From a virus (lineage: Duplodnaviria; Caudoviricetes): a DNA stretch of 59,213 nt. The stretch is taken from the IMG/VR virus record IMGVR_UViG_3300033145_001323, positions 1-59,213 of that record; one strand, given 5' to 3'. Numbering within the stretch: the first letter of the stretch is position 1; each line of letters starts with the position of its first letter. Shown piece after piece: positions 21 through 11,258 of the stretch. The translations under genes and the position numbers were made by a program. The notes beneath the pieces were generated by a model that made no database searches, was not told where the DNA came from, and saw only the letters and a program-made list of their open reading frames with translations.

Positions 21-291
21 AATAACTTTAGACTGGAGAGGTAGGGATTTCGGTAGTCACCCTACAAAAATTAATTTTATATTCAGTCGCCATTAGTTTC
101 TCTCTAAATATAAATTATTGCGTTTACTTTCAGCGATACTGTAAAGGGCTAATTGACTATAATACCTCTTAAGAAAGTGTGTTGGACGGACAAAGGAAAG
201 AATTTAAATTCACTCCTTCTGCCGTCCAAATACTTAATATTATAGTTTGCCTCGCCTCCACTATTCCGCCACTCTCCAGTCCAAAATTATT
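21..291 (-). ncRNA. candidate large tRNA-like structured RNA (~250 nt)
   Basis: Ends pair (GACTGGAGAG/CTCTCCAGTC plus imperfect extension); minus-strand 5' GGAGAGTGGCGGAATAG resembles a tRNA 5' half; 3' GTAGGG..CCCTAC-CTCTCCA resembles T-arm plus acceptor; internal hairpin TTGGACGG..CCGTCCAA. Confidence 0.45.
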
Positions 292-948: not shown

Positions 949-1441
949 TAGTTCTCTAAAAAACTGGGGGTGAGGAGTTGAACTTTGTTATACTATATTT
1001 TATTAGGAAACAATTTACGGGTCGCCTACTATCCTCGCTGATTAAAATACTCACAATTGTTGTTTAGAGCATTCTAATTAGTTTGGCTTTCGCCCCTACA
1101 CTTGGGTGCGACCAAGTTTGGCTTGTAAGTGTTCAGCTTATCCTACACTTGTTTCTTCGGACTACTAATTGCTCACGGATTTCCCGACAGAGTATTCGGG
1201 CGAGCCCTCGCTTTGGTATATCTTCCACCAACTTGCCAAAGTTGGCTTGTCTTTTACCTCCACTAACTCCAACTCCCACCAATACCTTTTGTGTAAATGT
1301 AGAAGTATTTTTGCGTTTAGTATCCCTATAACATAGAGTCACCTCACAGGTGGACATTTTTGGGAGCATTACCCTCGCGTAGCCCACAACCATTTAGGTT
1401 TGCGTTTCTCTTTTCCGCCACCCCAGTTTTTTAGAGAACTA
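949..1441 (-). ncRNA. candidate large tRNA-like structured RNA (~490 nt) closed by a 21-bp perfect inverted repeat
   Basis: TAGTTCTCTAAAAAACTGGGG / CCCCAGTTTTTTAGAGAACTA; D-arm-like GCG-GAAAAGAGAAA-CGC at the 5' end; GTTCAACTCC near the 3' end; GC-richer than the flanks; no convincing ORF. Confidence 0.55.
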
Positions 1442-1943: not shown

Positions 1944-3100
1944 GTTAAACATACATAAGGGCGATACCTTGTTGCCCATAGATTATCGGCTTGCCAATAA
2001 CCCAGTGGCTCTTTGTGTGATATTTATTGCCGCGTTTCTGTCGGCATTGCTTTCATATCCACACTTATTACATTTAAACCTTTCTTGGTTTTTACGATTA
2101 GACCGAGAGATGTATCCGCATTTTGAACACCTACGGCTTGTTTCTTTTGGGTCTATGGCTGACACAGCCACTCCTGAAAGGCGAGCCTTATATTGTATAA
2201 AATCTACCAACTGCCTAAATGACCAATTATGTAGCATTCGATTGGTTTTTTTGTTAGCTTTTATTCGTCCCCTTATTCCTGTTAAATTTTCAATAGCAAC
2301 CGACCGTTTATTTTTAACTGCTATTTTTATTATCTCTTTACTAATTTTGTGATTTGTATTTTTTATCCAGTTTGCCTCTTTTTTACTTATTCTCTTTAAT
2401 AGTTTATAAACATTTCCTTGTTTTATTTTTGGTTGTAATTTTTTACGGAGTTTATAATAATGGTTTCTTTTTGACTTTAATGGTTTGCCATTAAAAAATC
2501 TTGTATTCTTTCCATTCCAATCACATAATACTGCTGTCTTCGCAAGTCCTAAATCTACACCCATATATCTTTTATACTTCTTGATTTTAGGTTCTTCAAT
2601 TTTAACTGACAAAAAACAAAACCAATTATTGCCTATCTTTTTTATTTTACTTTCCCTTATTTGTCCATCTGGAATTGCCTGACTTCTAAATGGTATCCAG
2701 AAATATCCTTCTCCAAAAGAAATTCCTAAATTGTTTTTATCTACTTTTAAGTTAGAAATAGATATAATTTCTTTTTTTAGAAATGGGGCATTTTTTCTTT
2801 TCTTTTTTGATGTTCTAACTAATCTAATAGCAGTATATTCTGCTAATTGTGTCATTAGTGCACCTAACCTAAATTTTTTTCTTGCTGGATAATAAAACCT
2901 TTCTTGAAGTTCTTTAATGTTTGTGCTTTCTATTTCTCGTATTTTGTCTATCCAATAATTAACACAAGCAGTTTGAGTTTTTGCTGTTTTTAATAATAAT
3001 AGTTCCTTGTTTTTTCTTGGAAGATATAATTTTAGTTTTCTTGTTATTATCATATCTCCATTTTATATCAATCAATATAATATGTCAAGTAATACTACCT
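1944..3100 (-). mobile_element. solo-TnpB (IS1341-like) element; boundaries approximate
   Basis: No tnpA in the window; subterminal hairpin GGGC..GCCC (1959-1977) after the stop; TTGACA-17-TAAAAT promoter upstream. Confidence 0.5.
1983..3053 (-). CDS. tnpB: IS200/IS605-family TnpB RNA-guided endonuclease
   Basis: RuvC-I GVDLG, RuvC-II IENL, zinc ribbon CSKC..CNKC, RuvC-III NADRNAAINI. Confidence 0.92.
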   Translation of the reverse strand: MIITRKLKLYLPRKNKELLLLKTAKTQTACVNYWIDKIREIESTNIKELQERFYYPARKKFRLGALMTQLAEYTAIRLVRTSKKKRKNAPFLKKEIISISNLKVDKNNLGISFGEGYFWIPFRSQAIPDGQIRESKIKKIGNNWFCFLSVKIEEPKIKKYKRYMGVDLGLAKTAVLCDWNGKNTRFFNGKPLKSKRNHYYKLRKKLQPKIKQGNVYKLLKRISKKEANWIKNTNHKISKEIIKIAVKNKRSVAIENLTGIRGRIKANKKTNRMLHNWSFRQLVDFIQYKARLSGVAVSAIDPKETSRRCSKCGYISRSNRKNQERFKCNKCGYESNADRNAAINITQRATGLLASR

Positions 3101-3138: not shown

Positions 3139-5115
3139 TTATTTCAGAAGATTCAGAATACTGTCTTTTTCAAGAACCTCAGGTGATAAATCAATGTCAG
3201 CTTTATTTTTGTCTGTAATAAGTTTAGCCTTAGCTTTCTTAAGCACATCCTTTAGATTTATTGTATTCTCATAAAACCCAAAAAGATACTTTCTACTATG
3301 TTCCACAAAATCAGAATCACTTGAAGATATTGATTTCCCTATATTTGTTTCAGCGAAGTAAAATCTGCTTTCATTTTGGGTTGTAATAATCAATCCTAAT
3401 ATCTTTTGTTTTTCTTTGATTTTTGATTCGGCAACCGATACAAGATTATTGGGGTCAACCATATAGTTTTTTCCAAAATCTTCTGCTTTTTCTTTCGCCA
3501 CTATTATCTTAAATGGCACTTCTGTATTGCTATCAAAGTTAAAATAGTTTACAAGAAGTATGAGTGCTTTCTTAGTTTGTTTTTTAACATAAAATAATTC
3601 GGTAGCTCCATTTTTTCCACGGGCATCTGTTATATCACCTGAAAATAATATATCTCCGCTATCTGTTCTGTAATCAGCATCCCAACCAATCTTTTTATCT
3701 TGTGAAATAACTGATAAATCTAAATCAACTACTTTACTTTTTACATTTTTCCAATTTATGCCCACTATCATATCTTTTGGAATTGTTATATAGGTGCCAG
3801 AAGGGAGGTTGCCAGTGAAGCCCTTTTCTGTGGCAGGCAAACTATAATTGACGTGTTGAGGAAGATAGATTTTCTTGCCTTTTACATTCTTGCTAACATC
3901 CTTTACAATGGAATCCAAAACTATGTTTAAGATTCTTTTAGCACTACTTTTGTTTTCAAAGGAGAAATTTTGGGCATAGCCCTTGCCATTTCGCACACGG
4001 TAAAGAATTGAATTTATGTCCTTAGTGCGGAATCGCAACGCGTATGCGAGCCTGATTTTACGAAAAGTGGACACCTTGTCTAATTCTTTATTAAGTTCTT
4101 TTTTGGTTATTCTTTCATTTCTTTTTATTTTAGCAGTGACATCGTTAAGATAGTCCACTGGCATTGGTCGATGGTATTTGACAGCCAATCTTCTCATCCT
4201 ATTGATTGTAGGTTTTAGTTTTTTATTAGAGCGAAGGCTAAGCCATAATGGCTTGAATCTGTAAAAGATTGTAGACAGTCTATTTAATCCATACTTACTT
4301 TCATAATCTTTGAATAACTTGATGATATTCTTATTCTCATTTTCTTTAATCTTATCTATTAGGTCATTGCTTTTGATTAAAAGTGTTTGATTTGTTGTTT
4401 TAAAAATAACAAACCGCAAGAACTCGATTGGATTTTCTGGAAGCATTTTTAAGTGGTCATAAAGAGCTATCTTTACTTCTTTGTTTTTGATTCCATCAAT
4501 ATCATTTTCATCAATGCCTACAAAAACCGCCACATTCATAACATCTTTAATCGTATCCTCACCCAAAGCAATTCCTGAACCAAGTAAGTTTAATAACTTC
4601 TCTTTCAATTCTTTCTTGGTGTAGCCTTTTATAACAGTCAGTTTTATTCCATCTATATCTAAATCTGGGATTTCTAACTTTTCTTTTGGGATATAAACAT
4701 AATTGCCACCGATTTTGTCTGATTTGAAATCTTTTAATCCGATGATTTTTCCGCCTAGATTATCAACATCCCATTGTCCTTCTTTTCCTTCTATGTATTC
4801 TTCTGGTTCTTCTTTGCCATAGGTTGTAAGATAGTGAGCCAATTGTTCTACTACCAGTTGTTCCATATCGGCATCTTTGATTTTACTCCAAGATTTGTGG
4901 AAGGCATTATTCATCTCCTTGGCAGTTATTCCAATGGATTTTTCCACCAATCTAATCAGGCTATTGTGGTCGGGATAGCTATAAATAACTTCAGGGGTGA
5001 AGGCAAATCCTTTTTTAATTGTCCGTTCCATCAATTTCTTGTCGGTTTTCTTTCTTTTGTTTTCTATTGGGACTGCTCGGAATAAATTGATTGTGGATTG
5101 TGTTATTGTTTTCAT
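3139..5115 (-). CDS. 658-aa protein with long, probably helical N-terminal region and TerD-like C-terminal domain (possibly Ro60/TROVE-like RNA-binding)
   Basis: C-terminal VDLDLS..IGWDADYR..ILFSGDITDA..GATELFYV resembles TerD-type domains; directly preceded by repeated RNA hairpins. Confidence 0.55.
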   Translation of the reverse strand: MKTITQSTINLFRAVPIENKRKKTDKKLMERTIKKGFAFTPEVIYSYPDHNSLIRLVEKSIGITAKEMNNAFHKSWSKIKDADMEQLVVEQLAHYLTTYGKEEPEEYIEGKEGQWDVDNLGGKIIGLKDFKSDKIGGNYVYIPKEKLEIPDLDIDGIKLTVIKGYTKKELKEKLLNLLGSGIALGEDTIKDVMNVAVFVGIDENDIDGIKNKEVKIALYDHLKMLPENPIEFLRFVIFKTTNQTLLIKSNDLIDKIKENENKNIIKLFKDYESKYGLNRLSTIFYRFKPLWLSLRSNKKLKPTINRMRRLAVKYHRPMPVDYLNDVTAKIKRNERITKKELNKELDKVSTFRKIRLAYALRFRTKDINSILYRVRNGKGYAQNFSFENKSSAKRILNIVLDSIVKDVSKNVKGKKIYLPQHVNYSLPATEKGFTGNLPSGTYITIPKDMIVGINWKNVKSKVVDLDLSVISQDKKIGWDADYRTDSGDILFSGDITDARGKNGATELFYVKKQTKKALILLVNYFNFDSNTEVPFKIIVAKEKAEDFGKNYMVDPNNLVSVAESKIKEKQKILGLIITTQNESRFYFAETNIGKSISSSDSDFVEHSRKYLFGFYENTINLKDVLKKAKAKLITDKNKADIDLSPEVLEKDSILNLLK

Positions 5116-5129
5116 TTTTTTATAGTTGT

Positions 5130-5180
5130 GGCGGATGGTAGTAAAAGCAAAAATTTATTTGATTAGGAACCATCTGTGCC
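5130..5180 (-). ncRNA. bulged hairpin motif, copy 1
   Basis: GGC-ACA-GATGGT-TCCTA..ACCATC-C-GCC on the minus strand. Confidence 0.7.
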
Positions 5181-5190
5181 AACAAGTTAT

Positions 5191-5412
5191 TTATTTATTT
5201 TGATTTATTAAATAATCTGCTATTTCCTTTATTCTATCTTTCAATTCTTCTATTTCATCTATTCCATCATATAAATCCTCTCTATCAAAATGACGATATT
5301 CGGAAAACCCACAATTTTTACAATTTCCGAATTCTCCTTCTTTCCATTTATCGCAAGGAATAATGTTTTTATTTATTGAAGGTGATATAGAGGGTGAAAC
5401 TTTTGTTTTCAT
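5191..5412 (-). CDS. hypothetical Cys-containing protein
   Basis: 73-aa ORF; N-terminal VSPSISPS; CKNC. Confidence 0.6.
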   Translation of the reverse strand: MKTKVSPSISPSINKNIIPCDKWKEGEFGNCKNCGFSEYRHFDREDLYDGIDEIEELKDRIKEIADYLINQNK

Positions 5413-5450
5413 ATTTTTATTTTATGTGCACCAATGTGCACTTTTATTAA

Positions 5451-5567
5451 TGGAGGAAAGATGGGATTTGAACCCATACTGCCCGAGCCCTGTTTTATAG
5501 GAACTTGTTTTGCTCGAAAGCGATAAGTAAAATAATCGGGCGTTCTACCAATTAAACCACTTTCCTC
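5451..5567 (-). ncRNA. tRNA-like RNA with 49 nt in place of the 7-nt anticodon loop
   Basis: Acceptor AGGAAAG/CTTTCCT then CCA; D-arm GTTT-AATTGGTA-GAAC; anticodon stem CCCGA/TCGGG; T-arm ATGGG-TTCAAAT-CCCAT. Confidence 0.8.
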
Positions 5568-5574
5568 ATTAAAT

Positions 5575-5620
5575 GGCGGGCAATAAATAATAGATTTATA
5601 GAATAGGAATTGCCTTTGCC
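5575..5620 (-). ncRNA. bulged hairpin motif, copy 2
   Basis: GGC-AAA-GGCAAT-TCCTA..ATTGCC-C-GCC. Confidence 0.7.
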
Positions 5621-5640
5621 ATTTGTGAATTATTATTTAA

Positions 5641-5690
5641 GGCGAGTGGTAAATAAATTTTCAAGATTTGATATAGGAACCACTTTTGCC
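5641..5690 (-). ncRNA. bulged hairpin motif, copy 3
   Basis: GGC-AAA-AGTGGT-TCCTA..ACCACT-C-GCC. Confidence 0.7.
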
Positions 5691-5710
5691 CAAGATTATT
5701 ACTATATCCC

Positions 5711-5757
5711 ATTATATACACAGAGATATTTTTGTCAACCCCTGTTCTTGTGGATAA
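5711..5757 (-). promoter_or_regulatory. sigma70-type promoter with upstream DnaA box
   Basis: TTATCCACA-N10-TTGACA-N16-TATAAT. Confidence 0.75.
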
Positions 5758-5760
5758 CTT

Positions 5761-7953
5761 TTATTTTGTTTTTGATAAAAATAATTTCTTCCACCGATAA
5801 AATGAAGCCCTGCTTTCTGTCCACTTTTCCAATCTTTTTATATCATCTGTATGTTTCTCCAATAAATCCTTGATTAGAAATAATCTCTCATCAATCTCAA
5901 GATTTTGTATAACCTCATATCTCCAATCGATGTTAGATTGTTTACTTTCAATTGCAAGAACATATGTTCGTAAATTAAGATTCTTTGAAAATGGGGCAAA
6001 TGTTTTTAAGAAGCCTAATATTTCTTTATCCTCCGCCCATTCTGTGAGATACCTATGTATTTCTATATCAGATGGGCAGAAGTTCAAACAGTGTCCTCTT
6101 GACATTACTGCCCTAATATTGGGGTCTTCTGGCTTTAGTTTGTTGAGTAGTAAGATTACTTTTGCTTTTGTTTCAAATTCCCGTGGGTAATCTTTAAATA
6201 ATGGTGAAGTCGTGGAATATTGCATAACCTTTTCCTCTCTGGAGTCGCAAAGGATTTTTAGCATTGTAACTAACTTGGAATTGCTAAACATTATTTCTGC
6301 CTCATCTATCATTACAAGGACATCTTTTTCTTCCTGTGTTCTTTCGTATATGAGTTGGTAGAATCTCATTGGTGTTACATGAGAATTGATGGTTAATGGT
6401 GCAAATTCTATAAGTGCATTTTCAACCTGAAAACTATTATGGATTATAATGTCGTTAACTAAGAAATTATGTGCAGAATTGTCAATTTCTAAATCATAAA
6501 CTTGAATTGGTTCATTGATTAAATGTTTTTCTTTGATTTTTACCCATCGAATATTATCTTTGCTTTGCCATTTTAATTCAGATAGTAAATGGATGGCTTT
6601 TTTGAATTTTTGTAGTCTTAATTTTTTTTCAAGTTTAAGAATTTTTGAGATTGTATTGCTTGAAACGTTTTTTTGGTTTCTATATACATTCAAAACAGAG
6701 GCATATGTTTTGTTGGAAAACTTGGACATTCCATAAATAGAAACATTAATATCATCTTCGGAGAAGTTTTTAAACAAATCAAGCAATCTTTTAACTTTAT
6801 TTCTACTCAAATTTCCAGTTTTACAATGAAGTTTTAATGTATTCCAATGTGTTTTTGTGAGATAAGTTAGTTCTTGAAACTTTTTTTCTGATAATGGAAT
6901 TACATCCTTGTTGGTATTTATTGCTTTTTTTGATTTAACAATCTTAGTTAGTCTATCTTGTTTTCTTGTTAAATTAAATTTGATGTGCTTGTGATATTTT
7001 GCGAGAGATTCTCTATCTGTGATAACAAGTCTAAAATAAGAATTATCTGGGTAATTTTTGGCTTTTTTGTTGCTTATTTGAGAATGAACTCCAAATCGCA
7101 AAAATAAATGTTTAAGTTGTTTTATTAAGAATTCACTTGCCGATGTTACTTCAATTATATTATTTGCAACACAGCCATCTCCATCCATATATCTTGACAA
7201 ACAATCAGCAATCCTTTGGTTATTCTGAGATAACACTTCATTGGGGAAAAATTTATCTTTAGATAATTTGCCATAAAGTCCTAGTCTTTTTAATTCTACC
7301 TTGAGTGGATTTGGGCATCGTTTTCCTTTGTTTGTTTTTTTCACTATTCTATAAGTATAATGATTTGTTTTATCTTGTTTCAATGTTAATTTTTTATTAA
7401 ATCTTTTTATTTGATATTTAATATCTTTTACACTTTCTTTATCTCCTGAACTAAACATAGGATAATGACCAGTTAATCCTCCTTCTGCTATAAGATGTCC
7501 TAAAATCTTATTTAAACTATTAGAAATTTTGTTTTTATGTTTTATAATTGGATAAACATTGGGCACACAGATAAAATCTCCAATTTTCAATTCTGATACT
7601 GGTTGCCACCCACTGATAGTTAAGAGTGGATGCTCTGGGGTTAATCTGATTTGTCTTCCATCTTCTAATTTTAGCGACAGTGTTTTATTAACTTGTCTTT
7701 TGAAATATTTTTTTATAGGAGAATATTGTAGTCCTTTTTTATTATTAAAACATAGTGTATTATTTTCAACCATTTTCTTGCTGATTTTTGTCATTTCGCC
7801 GTTTTCTGTAATAATGTAATCATTTTTAGACATAGCTACACACTTCCCAAGTCCAGCTCTTGATACAAGTGTTACTAAGTTCATTTTCTTTTGGCTGAAC
7901 GATTCAATATATTTTTGTAGGTTTTTATATTTTTCTATTTTGAGAAATTGCAT
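5761..7953 (-). CDS. P-loop (AAA+-like) ATPase containing an intein
   Basis: Walker A AGLGK|S split by the intein; Walker B VMIDEAE; spliced extein 261 aa with HTH-like C-terminus SRASFYRWKK. Confidence 0.8.
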   Translation of the reverse strand: MQFLKIEKYKNLQKYIESFSQKKMNLVTLVSRAGLGKCVAMSKNDYIITENGEMTKISKKMVENNTLCFNNKKGLQYSPIKKYFKRQVNKTLSLKLEDGRQIRLTPEHPLLTISGWQPVSELKIGDFICVPNVYPIIKHKNKISNSLNKILGHLIAEGGLTGHYPMFSSGDKESVKDIKYQIKRFNKKLTLKQDKTNHYTYRIVKKTNKGKRCPNPLKVELKRLGLYGKLSKDKFFPNEVLSQNNQRIADCLSRYMDGDGCVANNIIEVTSASEFLIKQLKHLFLRFGVHSQISNKKAKNYPDNSYFRLVITDRESLAKYHKHIKFNLTRKQDRLTKIVKSKKAINTNKDVIPLSEKKFQELTYLTKTHWNTLKLHCKTGNLSRNKVKRLLDLFKNFSEDDINVSIYGMSKFSNKTYASVLNVYRNQKNVSSNTISKILKLEKKLRLQKFKKAIHLLSELKWQSKDNIRWVKIKEKHLINEPIQVYDLEIDNSAHNFLVNDIIIHNSFQVENALIEFAPLTINSHVTPMRFYQLIYERTQEEKDVLVMIDEAEIMFSNSKLVTMLKILCDSREEKVMQYSTTSPLFKDYPREFETKAKVILLLNKLKPEDPNIRAVMSRGHCLNFCPSDIEIHRYLTEWAEDKEILGFLKTFAPFSKNLNLRTYVLAIESKQSNIDWRYEVIQNLEIDERLFLIKDLLEKHTDDIKRLEKWTESRASFYRWKKLFLSKTK
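6436..7842 (-). mobile_element. LAGLIDADG intein (469 aa)
   Basis: Starts C-VAMS; block B LTPEHPLL; LGHLIAEGG and YMDGDG endonuclease motifs; block F VYDLEI; ends IIHN followed by S. Confidence 0.92.
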
Positions 7954-10034: not shown

Positions 10035-11258
10035 CTATCCCTTAATTGATGCAAGAGGCCGAAGTTCCACTAATATCTCAACAAGGTCTTCAGAATTTTT
10101 CATTACCTGTGATATATCCTTATACGAACCAACCGCCTCATCTAAATTATCTCTATTTCTTATTCCATGCACTATACCTTGGTCATTTAGTATTTTCATT
10201 TCATTTTCCAATGACAATTCTTCTTTTGCTCTTGTTCTGCTCATTATTCGCCCTGCACCGTGTGGACTTGAATTGAAACTATCTGGGTTTCCTTTCCCTT
10301 TGGTAATATAAGATGGTGAACCCATACTGCCTGGAATTATCCCGATTGTATTTTTGGTTGCCAATGTAGCTCCTTTCCTATGAACCATTACATTGGAATT
10401 GAAGTGATTTTCAAGTTGAGCAAAATTATGATTGATGTTTATCATCTCACCAAATTCTATTCCTGGAAGTTTGTCATTTACTCCTAAATCCCAACCGTGA
10501 AATTCTTTTGTAAAAACTTCCATAACTCTATCCATCATTAGCTTACGATTGGCGAATGCAAACTCCACACAATAATTCATTTCTCTTAAATATGCCTGCC
10601 CTTCTTCACTATCAAGAGGAAGAAAAGCCAACTCCCATTTCTTTGGAACCGAACTATGCCATTTCTCATTCAATTCAACTGCCAACTTATTATAATGATT
10701 AGCAACTTGTAGCCCAAGATTTCTACTGCCTGAATGTATCATAATGTAAATATGATTATCATTTCCTTTTTGGATTTCGATGAAATGATTTCCGTGAGCC
10801 CCCAATGTTCCCAATTGTTTTAGTGCTGAATTATATTCCCGATTTATAATTTTGTATTTTAGTGGATTGACTGCAGGATTAAATTTTGGCATTAAACTTT
10901 CATCTTGTGCTTCTTGGTGGTGTTTTCCTAAACCTATTGGTATAACCTTTCTAACCTCTCCCATTATTTTTTTAAGAGTATCTGTATCTATTTCTTTTAA
11001 GGAAGTTTTAACAGCACATAATCCGCAAGAAATATCAGAACCAATTAGATGAGGAATTACAACCCCCTTTGTAGCTACAACAGAACCAATACTTGCCCCC
11101 CTGCCAAAATGCCCATCCGCCATCAATGCAGTATGGTGATGAATAAATGGAAGTGAACAGACTTTTTCCATTTGTTCGATACATTGTTCTTCTATTGAAT
11201 TTTTTTCTGAAAATACTTTTAATGGTACTTTCATTTCTTTTGTTTTTAATACATACAT
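10035..11258 (-). CDS. rtcB: RtcB-family RNA ligase
   Basis: MADGHFG, GSDISCG, QLGTLG.GNHFIE, MIHSGSR, HN, VHRKGAT, IPGSMG, HGAGR, DEA. Confidence 0.95.
   Translation of the reverse strand: MYVLKTKEMKVPLKVFSEKNSIEEQCIEQMEKVCSLPFIHHHTALMADGHFGRGASIGSVVATKGVVIPHLIGSDISCGLCAVKTSLKEIDTDTLKKIMGEVRKVIPIGLGKHHQEAQDESLMPKFNPAVNPLKYKIINREYNSALKQLGTLGAHGNHFIEIQKGNDNHIYIMIHSGSRNLGLQVANHYNKLAVELNEKWHSSVPKKWELAFLPLDSEEGQAYLREMNYCVEFAFANRKLMMDRVMEVFTKEFHGWDLGVNDKLPGIEFGEMININHNFAQLENHFNSNVMVHRKGATLATKNTIGIIPGSMGSPSYITKGKGNPDSFNSSPHGAGRIMSRTRAKEELSLENEMKILNDQGIVHGIRNRDNLDEAVGSYKDISQVMKNSEDLVEILVELRPLASIKG

What the first reader, a model, noticed from the sequence alone, without database searches (positions are those of the whole stretch)
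5451..5567. tRNA mimic whose anticodon loop is replaced by a circularly permuted copy of the hairpin motif
Seen: canonical acceptor, D, anticodon and T stems with terminal CCA, but 49 nt replace the 7-nt anticodon loop. The insert reads ACTTAT-C-GC-T-TTCG-A-GC-AAA-ACAAGT-TCCTA. This is the neighbours' GC-AAA/C bulged helix plus TCCTA with the strands swapped, a TTCG cap and one stem mismatch. Removing the insert as an intron at 37/38 gives no normal loop (no purine 37). Established: YrlA-class Y RNAs join a tRNA-like domain to a protein-binding stem. Inference: a tRNA-shaped adaptor or decoy, for example for anticodon nucleases, tethered to the motif-binding protein.
Basis: partly seen in the sequence, partly recalled or inferred. 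Interest (0 to 1): 0.85.

Follow-up and report, generated by a model that had tools for sequence, protein, structure and literature searches.

The report
Phage tRNA look-alike carrying protein-handle module
This phage gene makes a tRNA-shaped RNA whose anticodon loop holds a small folded RNA module that, in thousands of uncultured phages and a few cultured ones, always sits beside one uncharacterised protein gene, pointing to an undescribed RNA-protein system built around tRNA mimicry.

Summary
The insert is a circularly permuted copy of the bulged hairpins at 5692-5639, 5622-5573 and 5182-5128. The module is a real, covarying RNA structure. It lies next to homologues of the 658-aa gene 3139-5115 in 72 of 80 related phage loci. 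In four whole records it occurs almost only beside that gene. A pattern for the permuted form hit 30 places in viral contigs, 28 of them inside tRNA-like bodies.

Excision at 33/34, not 37/38, leaves a normal-looking loop. Even so, a decoding role looks unlikely. One shared scaffold carries at least 12 different triplets. Two complete phages already hold normal tRNAs with the same triplets. A His-like G-1:C73 pair is kept in 10 of 10 cases with C73. Other module RNAs lack an anticodon or an open acceptor end.

Best reading: a non-decoding tRNA mimic, one RNA of a Y-RNA-like particle. It is not a YrlA/Ro60 member: the partner is a helical-repeat plus TerD-like protein. Function is untested. This scan noted the same module before, on other DNA (e1-6207465). 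I found it in no family library and no searched paper.

The parts
5711..5738 (-). Promoter-like site (TTGACA, 16 nt, TATAAT) just upstream of the first hairpin. Likely start of the RNA cluster transcript.
   Evidence: 12 of 12 consensus positions. The total number of promoter-like sites in 5050-5850 is not above chance (3 found, 4.5 expected), so this is a lead only.
5639..5692 (-). Module hairpin 1 (open form). Order: S1, AAA bulge, S2, UUCCUA, loop, UAC, S2', C, S1'. The loop can form a 4-bp hairpin with an anticodon-like 7-nt loop.
5573..5622 (-). Module hairpin 2 (open form). It ends 5 nt before G-1 of the tRNA-like gene. S2 ends in A-U instead of G-C.
5453..5567 (-). tRNA-shaped RNA gene: G-1, 7-bp acceptor stem, D arm, anticodon stem, 49-nt insert, 4-nt variable loop, T arm, C73.
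   Evidence: RF00005, 54.5 bits; aragorn -i; covariation of all stems across 22 relatives; G-1:C73.
5487..5535 (-). The 49-nt insert between the anticodon-stem strands. The permuted module core is 5529-5498: UAC, S2', C, GC, UUUCGA cap, GC, AAA, S2, UUCCUA.
5426..5441 (.). Palindromic hairpin GTGCAC-N4-GTGCAC just after the tRNA-like gene. The T-run follows it only on the + strand.
   Evidence: Its role for the minus-strand transcript was not shown.
5191..5412 (-). 73-aa ORF with two Cys pairs, between the tRNA-like gene and hairpin 3. No family match.
   Evidence: Whether it belongs to the system was not tested.
5128..5182 (-). Module hairpin 3 (open form, ACA bulge), 12 nt upstream of the protein gene.
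3139..5115 (-). 658-aa protein: helical-repeat N-terminal part plus a TerD-like beta domain. Inferred partner of the module.
   Evidence: large family, no names; co-location; models; no PDB fold match; TerD-like C-terminal domain; full-length matches to Campylobacter phage proteins.
10035..11258 (-). RtcB RNA ligase gene, 4.5 kb away. Context only, not shown to belong to the system.
   Evidence: PF01139, E 8.4e-102. RtcB found in only 2 of 12 records that carry a tRNA with the module, counting the window.

Best explanation
The gene at 5567-5453 (minus strand) encodes a stable, non-decoding tRNA-shaped RNA. It is one of four module-bearing RNAs made from a small RNA cluster upstream of the 658-aa gene.

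The module has a GC/GC stem, an A-N-A bulge opposite one C, a 5-bp covarying stem closed by G-C, then invariant UUCCUA and UA(C). I read it as the docking site for the 658-aa helical-repeat/TerD-like protein.

In the free hairpins the module's outer stem carries the RNA ends, and the apex often shows a small anticodon-like stem-loop. In the tRNA form the module is turned round and sits at the tip of the anticodon arm. The particle would then carry an L-shaped tRNA body with an open, 8-bp (G-1:C73) acceptor end.

I think the particle uses these tRNA parts as bait or adaptor for something that recognises tRNAs. Host tRNA-targeting defence nucleases, or tRNA repair and processing enzymes, are the obvious candidates.

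Shown: the structure, its conservation, its link to the protein gene, the several topologies, and the misfit with ordinary decoding.
Inferred: that the RNA is made, that the protein binds the module, and what the particle does.
For: 1. The module is a real RNA structure on this strand. Candidates were picked only by unpaired letters. The four free S2 positions then pair in 92-99% of 207 unique candidates, against 44-77% after shuffling. There are 51 different S2 words, and 71 G-U pairs against 17 A-C. Tool counts agree: type B alignment 93.8% paired against 76.9% shuffled (0 of 500 shuffles reach it) and 41-45% when slid. Four of 5 module pairs change on both sides.

2. The module is linked to the protein gene. 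72 of 80 protein-found loci have 1-6 modules on the gene's strand within -600/+400 nt. In whole records G025, G027, G028 and the window, all modules lie within about 1.5 kb of the gene, with one outlier in G028.

3. The permuted form is widespread. 28 of 30 pattern matches in viral contigs lie inside tRNA-like bodies.

4. Ordinary decoding fits poorly.
- Complete phage G027 already has a normal tRNA-Asn(GUU). Complete phage G028 has a normal long-arm tRNA-Leu(UAG). Their module-bearing tRNAs show the same triplets on a short-arm scaffold.
- Near-identical scaffolds differ only in the triplet: UUC, CUC, UCC.
- G at -1 accompanies C73 in 10 of 10 cases, against 1 of 12 otherwise (Fisher p = 3e-5).
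- The window's triplet would start with A34.

5. Other module RNAs cannot decode.
- Whole tRNA-like bodies with a tetraloop in place of the anticodon loop sit in the module loop (L087 3605, L088 4427, L091 4670, L095 6358, L097 5155).
- Permuted tRNA-like bodies with a closed acceptor stem occur at L026 2861, L037 2421 and in cyanophage S-CRM01.

6. Apical loops of the free hairpins are enriched for anticodon-like hairpins. 51 of 181 have them, against 22 +/- 4 in shuffles (maximum 36).
Against: - No expression data: no sequencing run could be listed.
- No direct test that the protein binds the RNA. Adjacency alone would also fit a cis-regulatory leader.
- One contiguous excision restores a canonical 5-bp stem and 7-nt loop with U33 and a purine at 37 in 18 of 26 unique relatives. 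In nine sequences, in two distinct scaffold groups, the insert splits the anticodon stem after nt 29 and the exons still complete a perfect arm. That is what a spliced intron would look like.
- The bodies keep normal D and T arms. Three of 22 encode CCA. They lie in tRNA arrays.
- Redundancy with a normal tRNA does not exclude decoding.
- The protein has no recognisable RNA-binding or catalytic fold.
- The count used hairpins pre-filtered for pairing.
Confidence: 0.5

Rival explanations
1. It is a true pre-tRNA. The module is a small protein-dependent intron, removed between nt 33 and 34 here and after nt 29 in another subgroup. Removal would give a decoding tRNA, here with anticodon AGG. The 658-aa protein would act as the module-specific endonuclease or maturase, and RtcB (phage or host) as the ligase. 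The free hairpins would be permuted intron copies that regulate or titrate the enzyme.
For: -: aragorn -i calls Pro(AGG) with a 42-nt intron.
- a canonical arm is restored in 18 of 26 unique relatives. This includes nine sequences in which the insert splits the stem after nt 29, with four different covarying exon stems.
- RtcB lies 4.5 kb away.
- the genes lie in tRNA arrays.
- UUCC can pair with the start of the 3' exon (mean longest helix 3.95 nt against 2.45 in shuffles, 0 of 500 shuffles reach it), like an exon-binding guide.
- Devoto et al. 2019 (PMC6784885, passages read) report 'enigmatic' introns in Lak phage tRNAs.
Against: -: RtcB occurs in only 2 of 12 records carrying such tRNAs, and in 0 of 3 complete ones.
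- No nuclease-like fold or family was found for the protein.
- There is no bulge-helix-bulge motif, and the splice-site distances to the module are not constant (my reading).
- the triplets duplicate normal tRNAs of the same phage. One is a Leu triplet on a short-arm scaffold.
- G-1:C73 is a His-type mark but sits on non-His triplets.
- In the loop-insert subgroup, the purine at 37 is confounded by the GGA(A) that pairs with UUCC.
- Types with a tetraloop or a closed acceptor stem cannot be pre-tRNAs.
Confidence: 0.25
2. The hairpins are cis-acting operators in the leader of the 658-aa gene's mRNA, giving autoregulation by the protein. The copy inside the tRNA would be a by-product that disables a tRNA gene: a decaying pseudogene or the footprint of a mobile element.
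For: -: the modules lie directly upstream of the gene on the same strand, 1-6 copies.
- a single strong promoter-like site lies ahead of the cluster.
- the insertion site varies (after nt 29, or in the loop) and the scaffolds vary, as expected for repeated insertion events.
Against: -: all tRNA stems and the module covary and stay paired across 22 diverged tRNA forms (acceptor 98%, T stem 99%). A pseudogene would not keep this.
- the G-1:C73 pair is kept.
- elaborate cargo (tetraloop-capped tRNA bodies, permuted bodies with closed acceptor stems) is conserved inside modules.
- modules also follow the gene (S-CRM01 at L110 7842; L001 5897-6163).
- modules are not scattered through the genomes as a mobile repeat would be.
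Confidence: 0.12
3. It is an RNA-protein pair of the toxin/antitoxin type, like type III systems. The tandem structured RNAs upstream would hold an otherwise harmful RNA-acting protein in check, and the tRNA form would mimic its substrate.
For: -: a tandem array of small structured RNAs lies immediately upstream of the protein gene on the same strand.
- the apical loops resemble anticodon loops, as a substrate mimic would.
Against: - The units are not near-identical direct repeats (51 different S2 words).
- The protein is about 650 aa, with no match to any PADLOC defence model (best E 0.061) or to Pfam.
- The system sits in lytic-type phage tRNA arrays.
Confidence: 0.08

Closest known systems
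YrlA-type bacterial and phage Y RNAs with Ro60/Rsr (Chen et al. 2014, PMC4201824; passages read)
   Same: Both have small RNAs encoded next to their protein partner. Both include a simple stem-loop RNA and an RNA that joins a protein-binding bulged stem to a tRNA-like domain with D and T arms. An RtcB gene lies nearby in the window. That RtcB shares an operon with rsr and the Y RNAs in Salmonella is my recollection; PMC7790460 was seen only in a search listing.
   Different: - The partner is not a TROVE/Ro60 protein.
- The module does not carry the GNCGAAN0-1G motif quoted; it has GGC-A-N-A instead.
- The Rfam scan gives no Y-RNA match.
- In YrlA, as I recall it, the acceptor stem is closed and the RNA ends form the protein-binding stem. 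Here the acceptor end is open and the module is capped, which is the opposite permutation. The YrlA-like permutation does exist in relatives (L026, L037, S-CRM01).
'Enigmatic' introns in tRNA genes of Lak megaphages (Devoto et al. 2019, PMC6784885; abstract and passages read)
   Same: Both are short conserved inserts in phage tRNA genes that fit no known intron class. Both are found only when tRNA finders are run with intron settings.
   Different: The sequences of the Lak inserts are in supplementary files that I could not open, so identity with this module is untested. That paper describes no partner protein and no free hairpin copies.
Archaeal and eukaryal tRNA introns (bulge-helix-bulge, mostly at 37/38) and permuted tRNA genes of red algae (recalled)
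   Same: All are short inserts in the anticodon arm. Part of the insert may pair with the anticodon region. Permuted gene forms exist alongside them.
   Different: I saw no 3-nt/4-bp/3-nt bulge-helix-bulge motif. The position is 29/30 or about 33/34. The setting is bacteriophage, and no splicing endonuclease homologue was found.
   Same: All are non-tRNA small RNA genes embedded in phage tRNA arrays with tRNA-like features.
   Different: No homologue of the 658-aa protein was found outside three phages among 50,697 phage records. Whether the T5 RNAs share this module was not tested.

Membership tests
tRNA (Rfam RF00005) | Cloverleaf with acceptor, D, anticodon and T stems and conserved D/T-loop letters | tested here: met
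   54.5 bits, model positions 1-71 of 71; all four stems covary across 22 relatives.
tRNA (Rfam RF00005) | 7-nt anticodon loop with U33, anticodon and purine 37 in the primary transcript | tested here: not met
   49 nt lie between the stem strands. ARAGORN in default mode calls none.
tRNA (decoding, after splicing) | Identity marks consistent with the anticodon, and a non-redundant place in the phage's tRNA set | tested here: inconclusive
   Against: duplicate Asn and Leu triplets; a Leu triplet on a short-arm scaffold; G-1:C73 on non-His triplets. For: (a canonical arm after excision in 18 of 26). Some discriminators fit the triplet by my recollection of E. coli rules.
YrlA / Y RNA with Ro60 | Partner protein with a TROVE domain encoded nearby | tested here: not met
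   no TROVE match for the 658-aa protein or for 22 relatives; no PDB sequence match; 1yvp_B ranks 45th, E 2.3, TM 0.20.
YrlA / Y RNA with Ro60 | Ro-binding sequence GNCGAAN0-1G in the stem (PMC4201824) | tested here: not met
   the module reads GGC-A(A/U/C)A-N5, with no CGAA.
YrlA / Y RNA with Ro60 | Match to the Rfam Y-RNA covariance models | tested here: not met
   only tRNA reached E <= 1 in 5000-6000, both strands.
YrlA / Y RNA with Ro60 | tRNA-like domain joined to a protein-binding bulged stem | tested here: met
   for this gene. for the permuted forms with a closed acceptor stem.
Bulge-helix-bulge tRNA intron | Two 3-nt bulges separated by 4 bp at the exon-intron junctions; usual site 37/38 | tested here: not met
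   By inspection. The bulges (A-N-A, UUCC) lie on one strand, and the sites are 29/30 or about 33/34.
Group I intron in a tRNA anticodon loop | More than 200 nt with the P3-P8 core; Rfam RF00028 match | tested here: not met
   The insert is 42-49 nt. Searches gave no match.
Known small self-cleaving ribozymes | Match to Rfam hammerhead, twister, pistol, hatchet, hairpin or HDV-like models | tested here: not met
   no match at E <= 1. Catalysis itself cannot be tested with these tools.
Type III toxin-antitoxin (ToxIN-like) | Near-identical tandem RNA repeats upstream of a small endoRNase toxin | tested here: not met
   the units differ (51 S2 words); no PADLOC match. The protein is 658 aa.
TerD-domain proteins | TerD beta-sandwich fold | tested here: inconclusive
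   a 194-aa TerD-like phage protein matches the C-terminal part (E 2.4e-4, TM by target 0.59). But Pfam TerD gives no match, and the Atlas and NCBIfam leads are weak.

The most novel reading that the evidence does not exclude
Tailed phages carry an undescribed ribonucleoprotein. It consists of one helical-repeat/TerD-like protein plus a set of RNAs that share a docking module and display exchangeable tRNA parts: bare anticodon stem-loops, anticodon-less tRNA bodies, permuted bodies, or whole tRNA shapes like this one. The displayed triplet varies between otherwise near-identical scaffolds. This suggests a programmable decoy or sensor aimed at host enzymes that cut or bind specific tRNAs, such as anticodon nucleases. 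A bolder alternative of the same weight: the module is a new protein-dependent mini-intron whose open form is a permuted intron-exon unit.
Probability: 0.25. Interest if true: 0.88.

Novelty: new variant of a known kind. Interest (0 to 1): 0.72.

Why it matters
Phage tRNA clusters have long been known to hold odd tRNA-like RNAs with no assigned job. Host defences that cut tRNAs are now recognised as common.

This locus gives a concrete handle on that problem.
- It has a short, easily recognised RNA module.
- It has a single conserved partner gene, found as 1,412 clusters at 50% identity in the whole-library search.
- The module appears in at least five RNA layouts.
- Cultured phages carry the system: Synechococcus phages S-CRM01 and S-CBWM1, and gut phage Phass-1. 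Campylobacter phage proteins match by fold.

If the particle is a decoy or adaptor for tRNA-targeting enzymes, it would be a new counter-defence principle. If the module is spliced, it would be the first protein-dependent small intron class in bacterial viruses.

Either way, tRNA finders run in bacterial mode miss these genes. With introns allowed they mislabel them instead: one search gave Pro, Gly, SeC, Ser and Asn to members of one family.

Tried and rejected
- **Ro60/TROVE identity of the 658-aa protein: rejected.** There is no match in Pfam, PHROGs, NCBIfam, PADLOC or PDB sequences. Two AlphaFold models, the whole protein (pLDDT 78) and residues 160-412 (pLDDT 94.3), gave no significant PDB fold match.
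- **HEPN-type RNase idea: dropped.** I noticed an R-x6-H stretch by eye, but the Arg is not invariant in the wider alignment and no HEPN fold appeared in the listed matches.
- **RtcB as an obligatory partner: not supported**.
- **Intron-less orthologues of the tRNA body.** I looked for them among 349 ARAGORN tRNA calls in the fetched loci, to fix the splice points. Only generic D-arm and T-arm matches turned up.
- **Expression.** No RNA holder was listed and no run was listed at all.
- **Known RNA families.** Rfam gave nothing but tRNA. For 1-1600 the only hit was a chance-level miRNA match.
- **Papers.** Five searches and the passages read gave no description of this module or protein. I saw only as outline and abstract. 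PMC7824862 and PMC9964418 I saw only as passages. Supplementary tables of PMC6784885 and PMC4201824, which list intron and Y-RNA sequences, were not opened and could bear on the claim that this is undescribed.
- **DNA-level readings** (recombinase site, IS200/IS605-type hairpins with the TnpB gene at 1983-3053). I considered these and set them aside. Pairing is kept through G-U pairs (71) far more often than broken by A-C (17) on this strand. The modules also keep a fixed orientation beside the protein gene, and TnpB is not a regular neighbour in the loci I looked at; I did not count it.
- **Complex prediction** was not used, because the partner in question is RNA.
Full report
**1. What is there**

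Rfam's tRNA model matches the minus strand at 5566-5453 over its whole length: 54.5 bits, E 5.4e-09 for the window. It is the only family match in the 59-kb window. The alignment leaves 47 nt unaligned in the anticodon loop.

Reading, the RNA has these parts:
- a 7-bp acceptor stem
- U8
- a 4-bp D stem with a GG-containing loop
- the anticodon stem CCCGA/UCGGG
- a 4-nt variable loop
- a T arm with the UUCAAAU loop
- C73

G at -1 can pair with C73.

Between the anticodon-stem strands lie 49 nt (5535-5487). In order they are:
- a U-rich linker
- UAC
- four nt that pair with the later S2, with one A.C mismatch
- a lone C
- GC
- the cap UUUCGA
- GC
- AAA
- S2
- UUCCUA
- an A-rich linker
- AGGGC

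ARAGORN in default mode finds no tRNA in the window. With introns allowed it calls Pro(AGG) with a 42-nt intron at position 34.

**2. The neighbours**

Three minus-strand hairpins lie at 5692-5639, 5622-5573 and 5182-5128. They hold the same elements in the order S1 (GGC), A-N-A, S2, UUCCUA, variable loop, UA(C/U), S2', C, S1' (GCC).

A perfect sigma-70-type consensus lies at 5738-5711, just ahead of the first hairpin. The order on the minus strand is:
1. promoter-like site
2. hairpin 1
3. hairpin 2
4. tRNA form, after a 5-nt gap
5. a palindrome
6. a 73-aa ORF
7. hairpin 3
8. the 658-aa gene (3139-5115)
9. a TnpB-type gene (1983-3053)

An RtcB ligase gene lies at 10035-11258. The window is a whole IMG/VR virus record with Mu-type portal and prohead protease genes.

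**3. The module is a real RNA structure**

I selected candidates in all fetched loci only by the letters that are unpaired or invariant. The four inner S2 positions and three outer S1 positions were left free. This gave 207 unique candidates.
- The free S2 positions pair in 92, 98, 97 and 99% of them, against 71, 77, 44 and 70% after shuffling partners.
- All four pair in 183 of 207.
- There are 51 different S2 words.
- G-U pairs (71) far outnumber A-C (17), so the constraint acts on RNA of this strand.

The pair-counting tool gives the same picture on 22 tRNA forms. 93.8% of cells are paired against 76.9% in shuffles (0 of 500 reach it) and 41-45% when partners are slid. Four of 5 module pairs change on both sides. 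On 18 hairpins of equal length the figure is 98.1% against 77.1%. Those 18 had been pre-filtered for pairing, so only their covariation counts.

The two pairs I call S3 (UA with UA) never vary, so they are not supported by covariation.

**4. The module goes with one protein**

The 658-aa protein has no match in Pfam, PHROGs, PADLOC or PDB sequences, and only a sub-threshold NCBIfam hit. Yet it belongs to a large family.
- The word-indexed search found 1,464 proteins at E <= 0.001 among the 8,000 candidates scored.
- The exhaustive search found 1,412 representative clusters, 885 of them at E <= 1e-30.
- Where a name is given, it is 'hypothetical protein'.

I fetched 80 viral loci by the protein alone. 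Of these, 72 have one to six modules on the gene's strand within -600/+400 nt. In L004 they lie a little further upstream. L024 has a variant that the strict pattern misses.

In the whole records G025 (35 kb), G027 (173 kb), G028 (147 kb) and the window, every module lies within about 1.5 kb of the gene. The one exception is a long, doubtful match in G028.

The models show a helical-repeat N-terminal part and a beta-rich C-terminal part. Neither has a significant PDB neighbour; Ro60 ranks 45th at E 2.3. Against predicted viral structures the results are:
- The whole protein matches uncharacterised proteins of Campylobacter phages IBB35 and CP21, and a 'tellurium resistant like' phage protein.
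- The C-terminal part matches a TerD-like phage protein (E 2.4e-4, TM 0.59 by target).

The ESM Atlas points to the MXAN_6230/SCO0854 RING family by structure (TM 0.62) and to TerD weakly.

Among 50,697 deposited phage records only three phages carry the protein: Synechococcus phages S-CRM01 and S-CBWM1, and gut phage Phass-1. In S-CRM01 the gene (g174) sits in the middle of the tRNA array. By eye, I found six module-like hairpins around it.

**5. The tRNA form is widespread and comes in two kinds**

A pattern for the permuted core found 27 stretches in IMG/VR. Of the 30 matches in them, 28 lie between a D arm and a T arm. The other two, L086 and L096, look like chance hits in coding DNA.

I parsed 26 unique sequences.
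- In one group (the window, L001, L004, L005, L014, L023, L085, L087a, L088a) the anticodon stem is complete and the module sits in the loop.
- In the other (L083, L087b, L088b, L090, L091a, L095b, L100, L103, L108a) the module interrupts the 5' strand of the stem after nt 29. A complete 2-bp-plus-7-nt anticodon-type hairpin follows it.

A single contiguous excision restores a 5-bp stem and a 7-nt loop with U33 and a purine at 37 in 18 of 26. It restores a 4-bp stem in one more. It fails in seven, and four of those are non-standard bodies that my parser mishandles.

**6. Why I still doubt decoding**

(a) Redundancy. The complete phage G027 has 24 ordinary tRNAs including Asn(GUU), and its module-bearing tRNA shows GUU. 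The complete phage G028 has 23 including a long-arm Leu(UAG), and its module-bearing tRNA shows UAG on a short-arm body.

(b) One scaffold, many triplets. Most bodies share a purine-rich acceptor strand and near-identical D and T arms. Yet they show at least 12 triplets. The near-identical scaffolds L087b, L088b, L103 and L108a differ in the loop only by the triplet: UUC, CUC, UCC, UCC.

(c) An eighth acceptor pair. G at -1 accompanies C73 in 10 of 10 cases, against 1 of 12 with other discriminators (p = 3e-5). In 6 of those 12 the -1 base can also pair with the discriminator. In bacteria an eighth G-1:C73 pair is the mark of tRNA-His (recalled). None of these triplets is His.

(d) A34. The window's triplet would begin with A34, which is unusual in bacteria (recalled).

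(e) A confound. In the loop-insert group the purine at 37 is confounded, because the letters before the 3' stem strand are complementary to UUCC(UA). The helices are 5-7 bp in L014, L017, L023, L085, L087a, L088a and L094, and 4 bp in the window. The mean is 3.95 against 2.45 in shuffles, and 0 of 500 shuffles reach it. Minimum-energy folds place a small hairpin there.

(f) RtcB. It is encoded in only 2 of the 12 records with such tRNAs that I tested: the window and G001 have it, and the ten do not. It is in 4 of 10 large protein-bearing records. Many of these records are fragments, and hosts often have their own RtcB: 10 of 14 control genomes do.

**7. Other layouts of the same module**

The list shows three further forms.

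(i) Hairpins whose loop holds a whole tRNA-like body. The body has a 7-bp acceptor stem and ACCA, but a tetraloop (GCAA, GAAA or UUAU) caps the anticodon stem. Examples are L087 3605, L088 4427, L091 4670, L095 6358 and L097 5155.

(ii) Hairpins whose loop holds a permuted body: 3' half, T arm, acceptor stem closed by a tetraloop, D arm, 5' half. Examples are L026 2861 and L037 2421, and S-CRM01 near L110 5630. This is the YrlA-type permutation.

(iii) Loops with only a T-arm-like hairpin (L035, L036, L087 3852).

The ordinary hairpins are also enriched for apical hairpins with a 7-nt loop.
- 131 of 181 have one, against 91 +/- 6 in shuffles (maximum 109).
- 51 of 181 also have U at loop position 2 and a purine at position 6, against 22 +/- 4 (maximum 36).
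- Loops of the C-U-N-N-N-A-A type recur. The window's hairpin 1 is one of them.

None of these can decode. So the system as a whole uses tRNA parts for something other than translation.

**8. Reading**

The simplest account of all layouts is a particle in which the protein holds the module and the RNA presents tRNA-like parts. The gene under study is the version that presents a whole tRNA body with an open acceptor end.

This works like the Ro60/Y-RNA particle but fails its membership tests: partner fold, binding motif and Rfam model. What the particle does is open. The variable triplets, the place in phage tRNA arrays and the current picture of tRNA-cutting host defences make a decoy or adaptor role attractive. 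That is inference.

A protein-dependent intron remains a serious rival, above all for the subgroup with the insert after nt 29. Only RNA data can decide between them.

**9. Earlier notes of this scan**

- The hairpin array of this window was noted separately (e1-6260984), and my checks agree with it.
- The same module beside an Rnl2-type ligase and a TerD-domain helical protein was noted on other DNA (e1-6207465). I did not re-examine that locus.
- Related notes on phage tRNA shells with inserts (e1-5928543, e1-5747841, e1-5319593) gave me the lead to Devoto et al. 2019. They also show that several different insert families exist in phage tRNA-like genes. I did not test whether any is the same module.

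Noticed in passing
window 949-1441 and 21-291 (minus strand): There are two larger elements with tRNA-like ends: a GGGG...CCCC closing stem, a GGCGGAA D-arm-like start and a T-arm-like end before a T-run. They enclose about 490 and 250 nt. The first holds a GUUUCCUAAUAAA stretch that recalls the module's UUCCUA. Similar GGCGGAA-type expanded tRNA-like genes stand in L014 (2677-2795, 5439-5561). Rfam gives no group I intron or tRNA match at E <= 1.
   Followed up: partly
window 5761-7953 (minus strand): A 730-aa protein is interrupted by an intein with a LAGLIDADG homing endonuclease domain (Pfam Intein_splicing and LAGLIDADG_3; NCBIfam intein models). The host protein looks like a P-loop ATPase or helicase by its flanking sequence, but it was not identified.
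   Followed up: no
window 1983-3053 (minus strand): A TnpB/Cas12f-like gene (OrfB_IS605 plus the Cas12f1-like TNB domain) lies directly downstream of the 658-aa gene. Its guide RNA region was not examined.
   Followed up: no
G028 95858-95948 (L126): Another tRNA-like gene on the same purine-rich scaffold has a 26-nt anticodon loop that starts with a GUA-type loop, followed by a different small hairpin and no UUCCUA module. Phages with this system seem to collect several kinds of expanded tRNA-like genes.
   Followed up: no
G028 105457-105529 (L127): ARAGORN labels a tRNA with anticodon CUA as 'Pyl' in a phage with 23 tRNAs. It may be an amber suppressor, which would hint at stop-codon recoding. 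This was not examined.
   Followed up: no
L091 7666-7777, L095 7197-7307, L108 618-729, L097 near 2970: These module-bearing RNAs have an acceptor-like stem and two T-arm-like hairpins but no D arm. L104 and L105 carry a form with an acceptor stem, a T arm and the module only.
   Followed up: partly
L110 (Synechococcus phage S-CRM01, NC_015569.1) 5530-5960 and 7842-7900: The cultured cyanophage S-CRM01 has about six unannotated module-like hairpins around gene g174, inside its tRNA array. One has a permuted tRNA-like body and one has a T-arm-like loop.
   Followed up: partly
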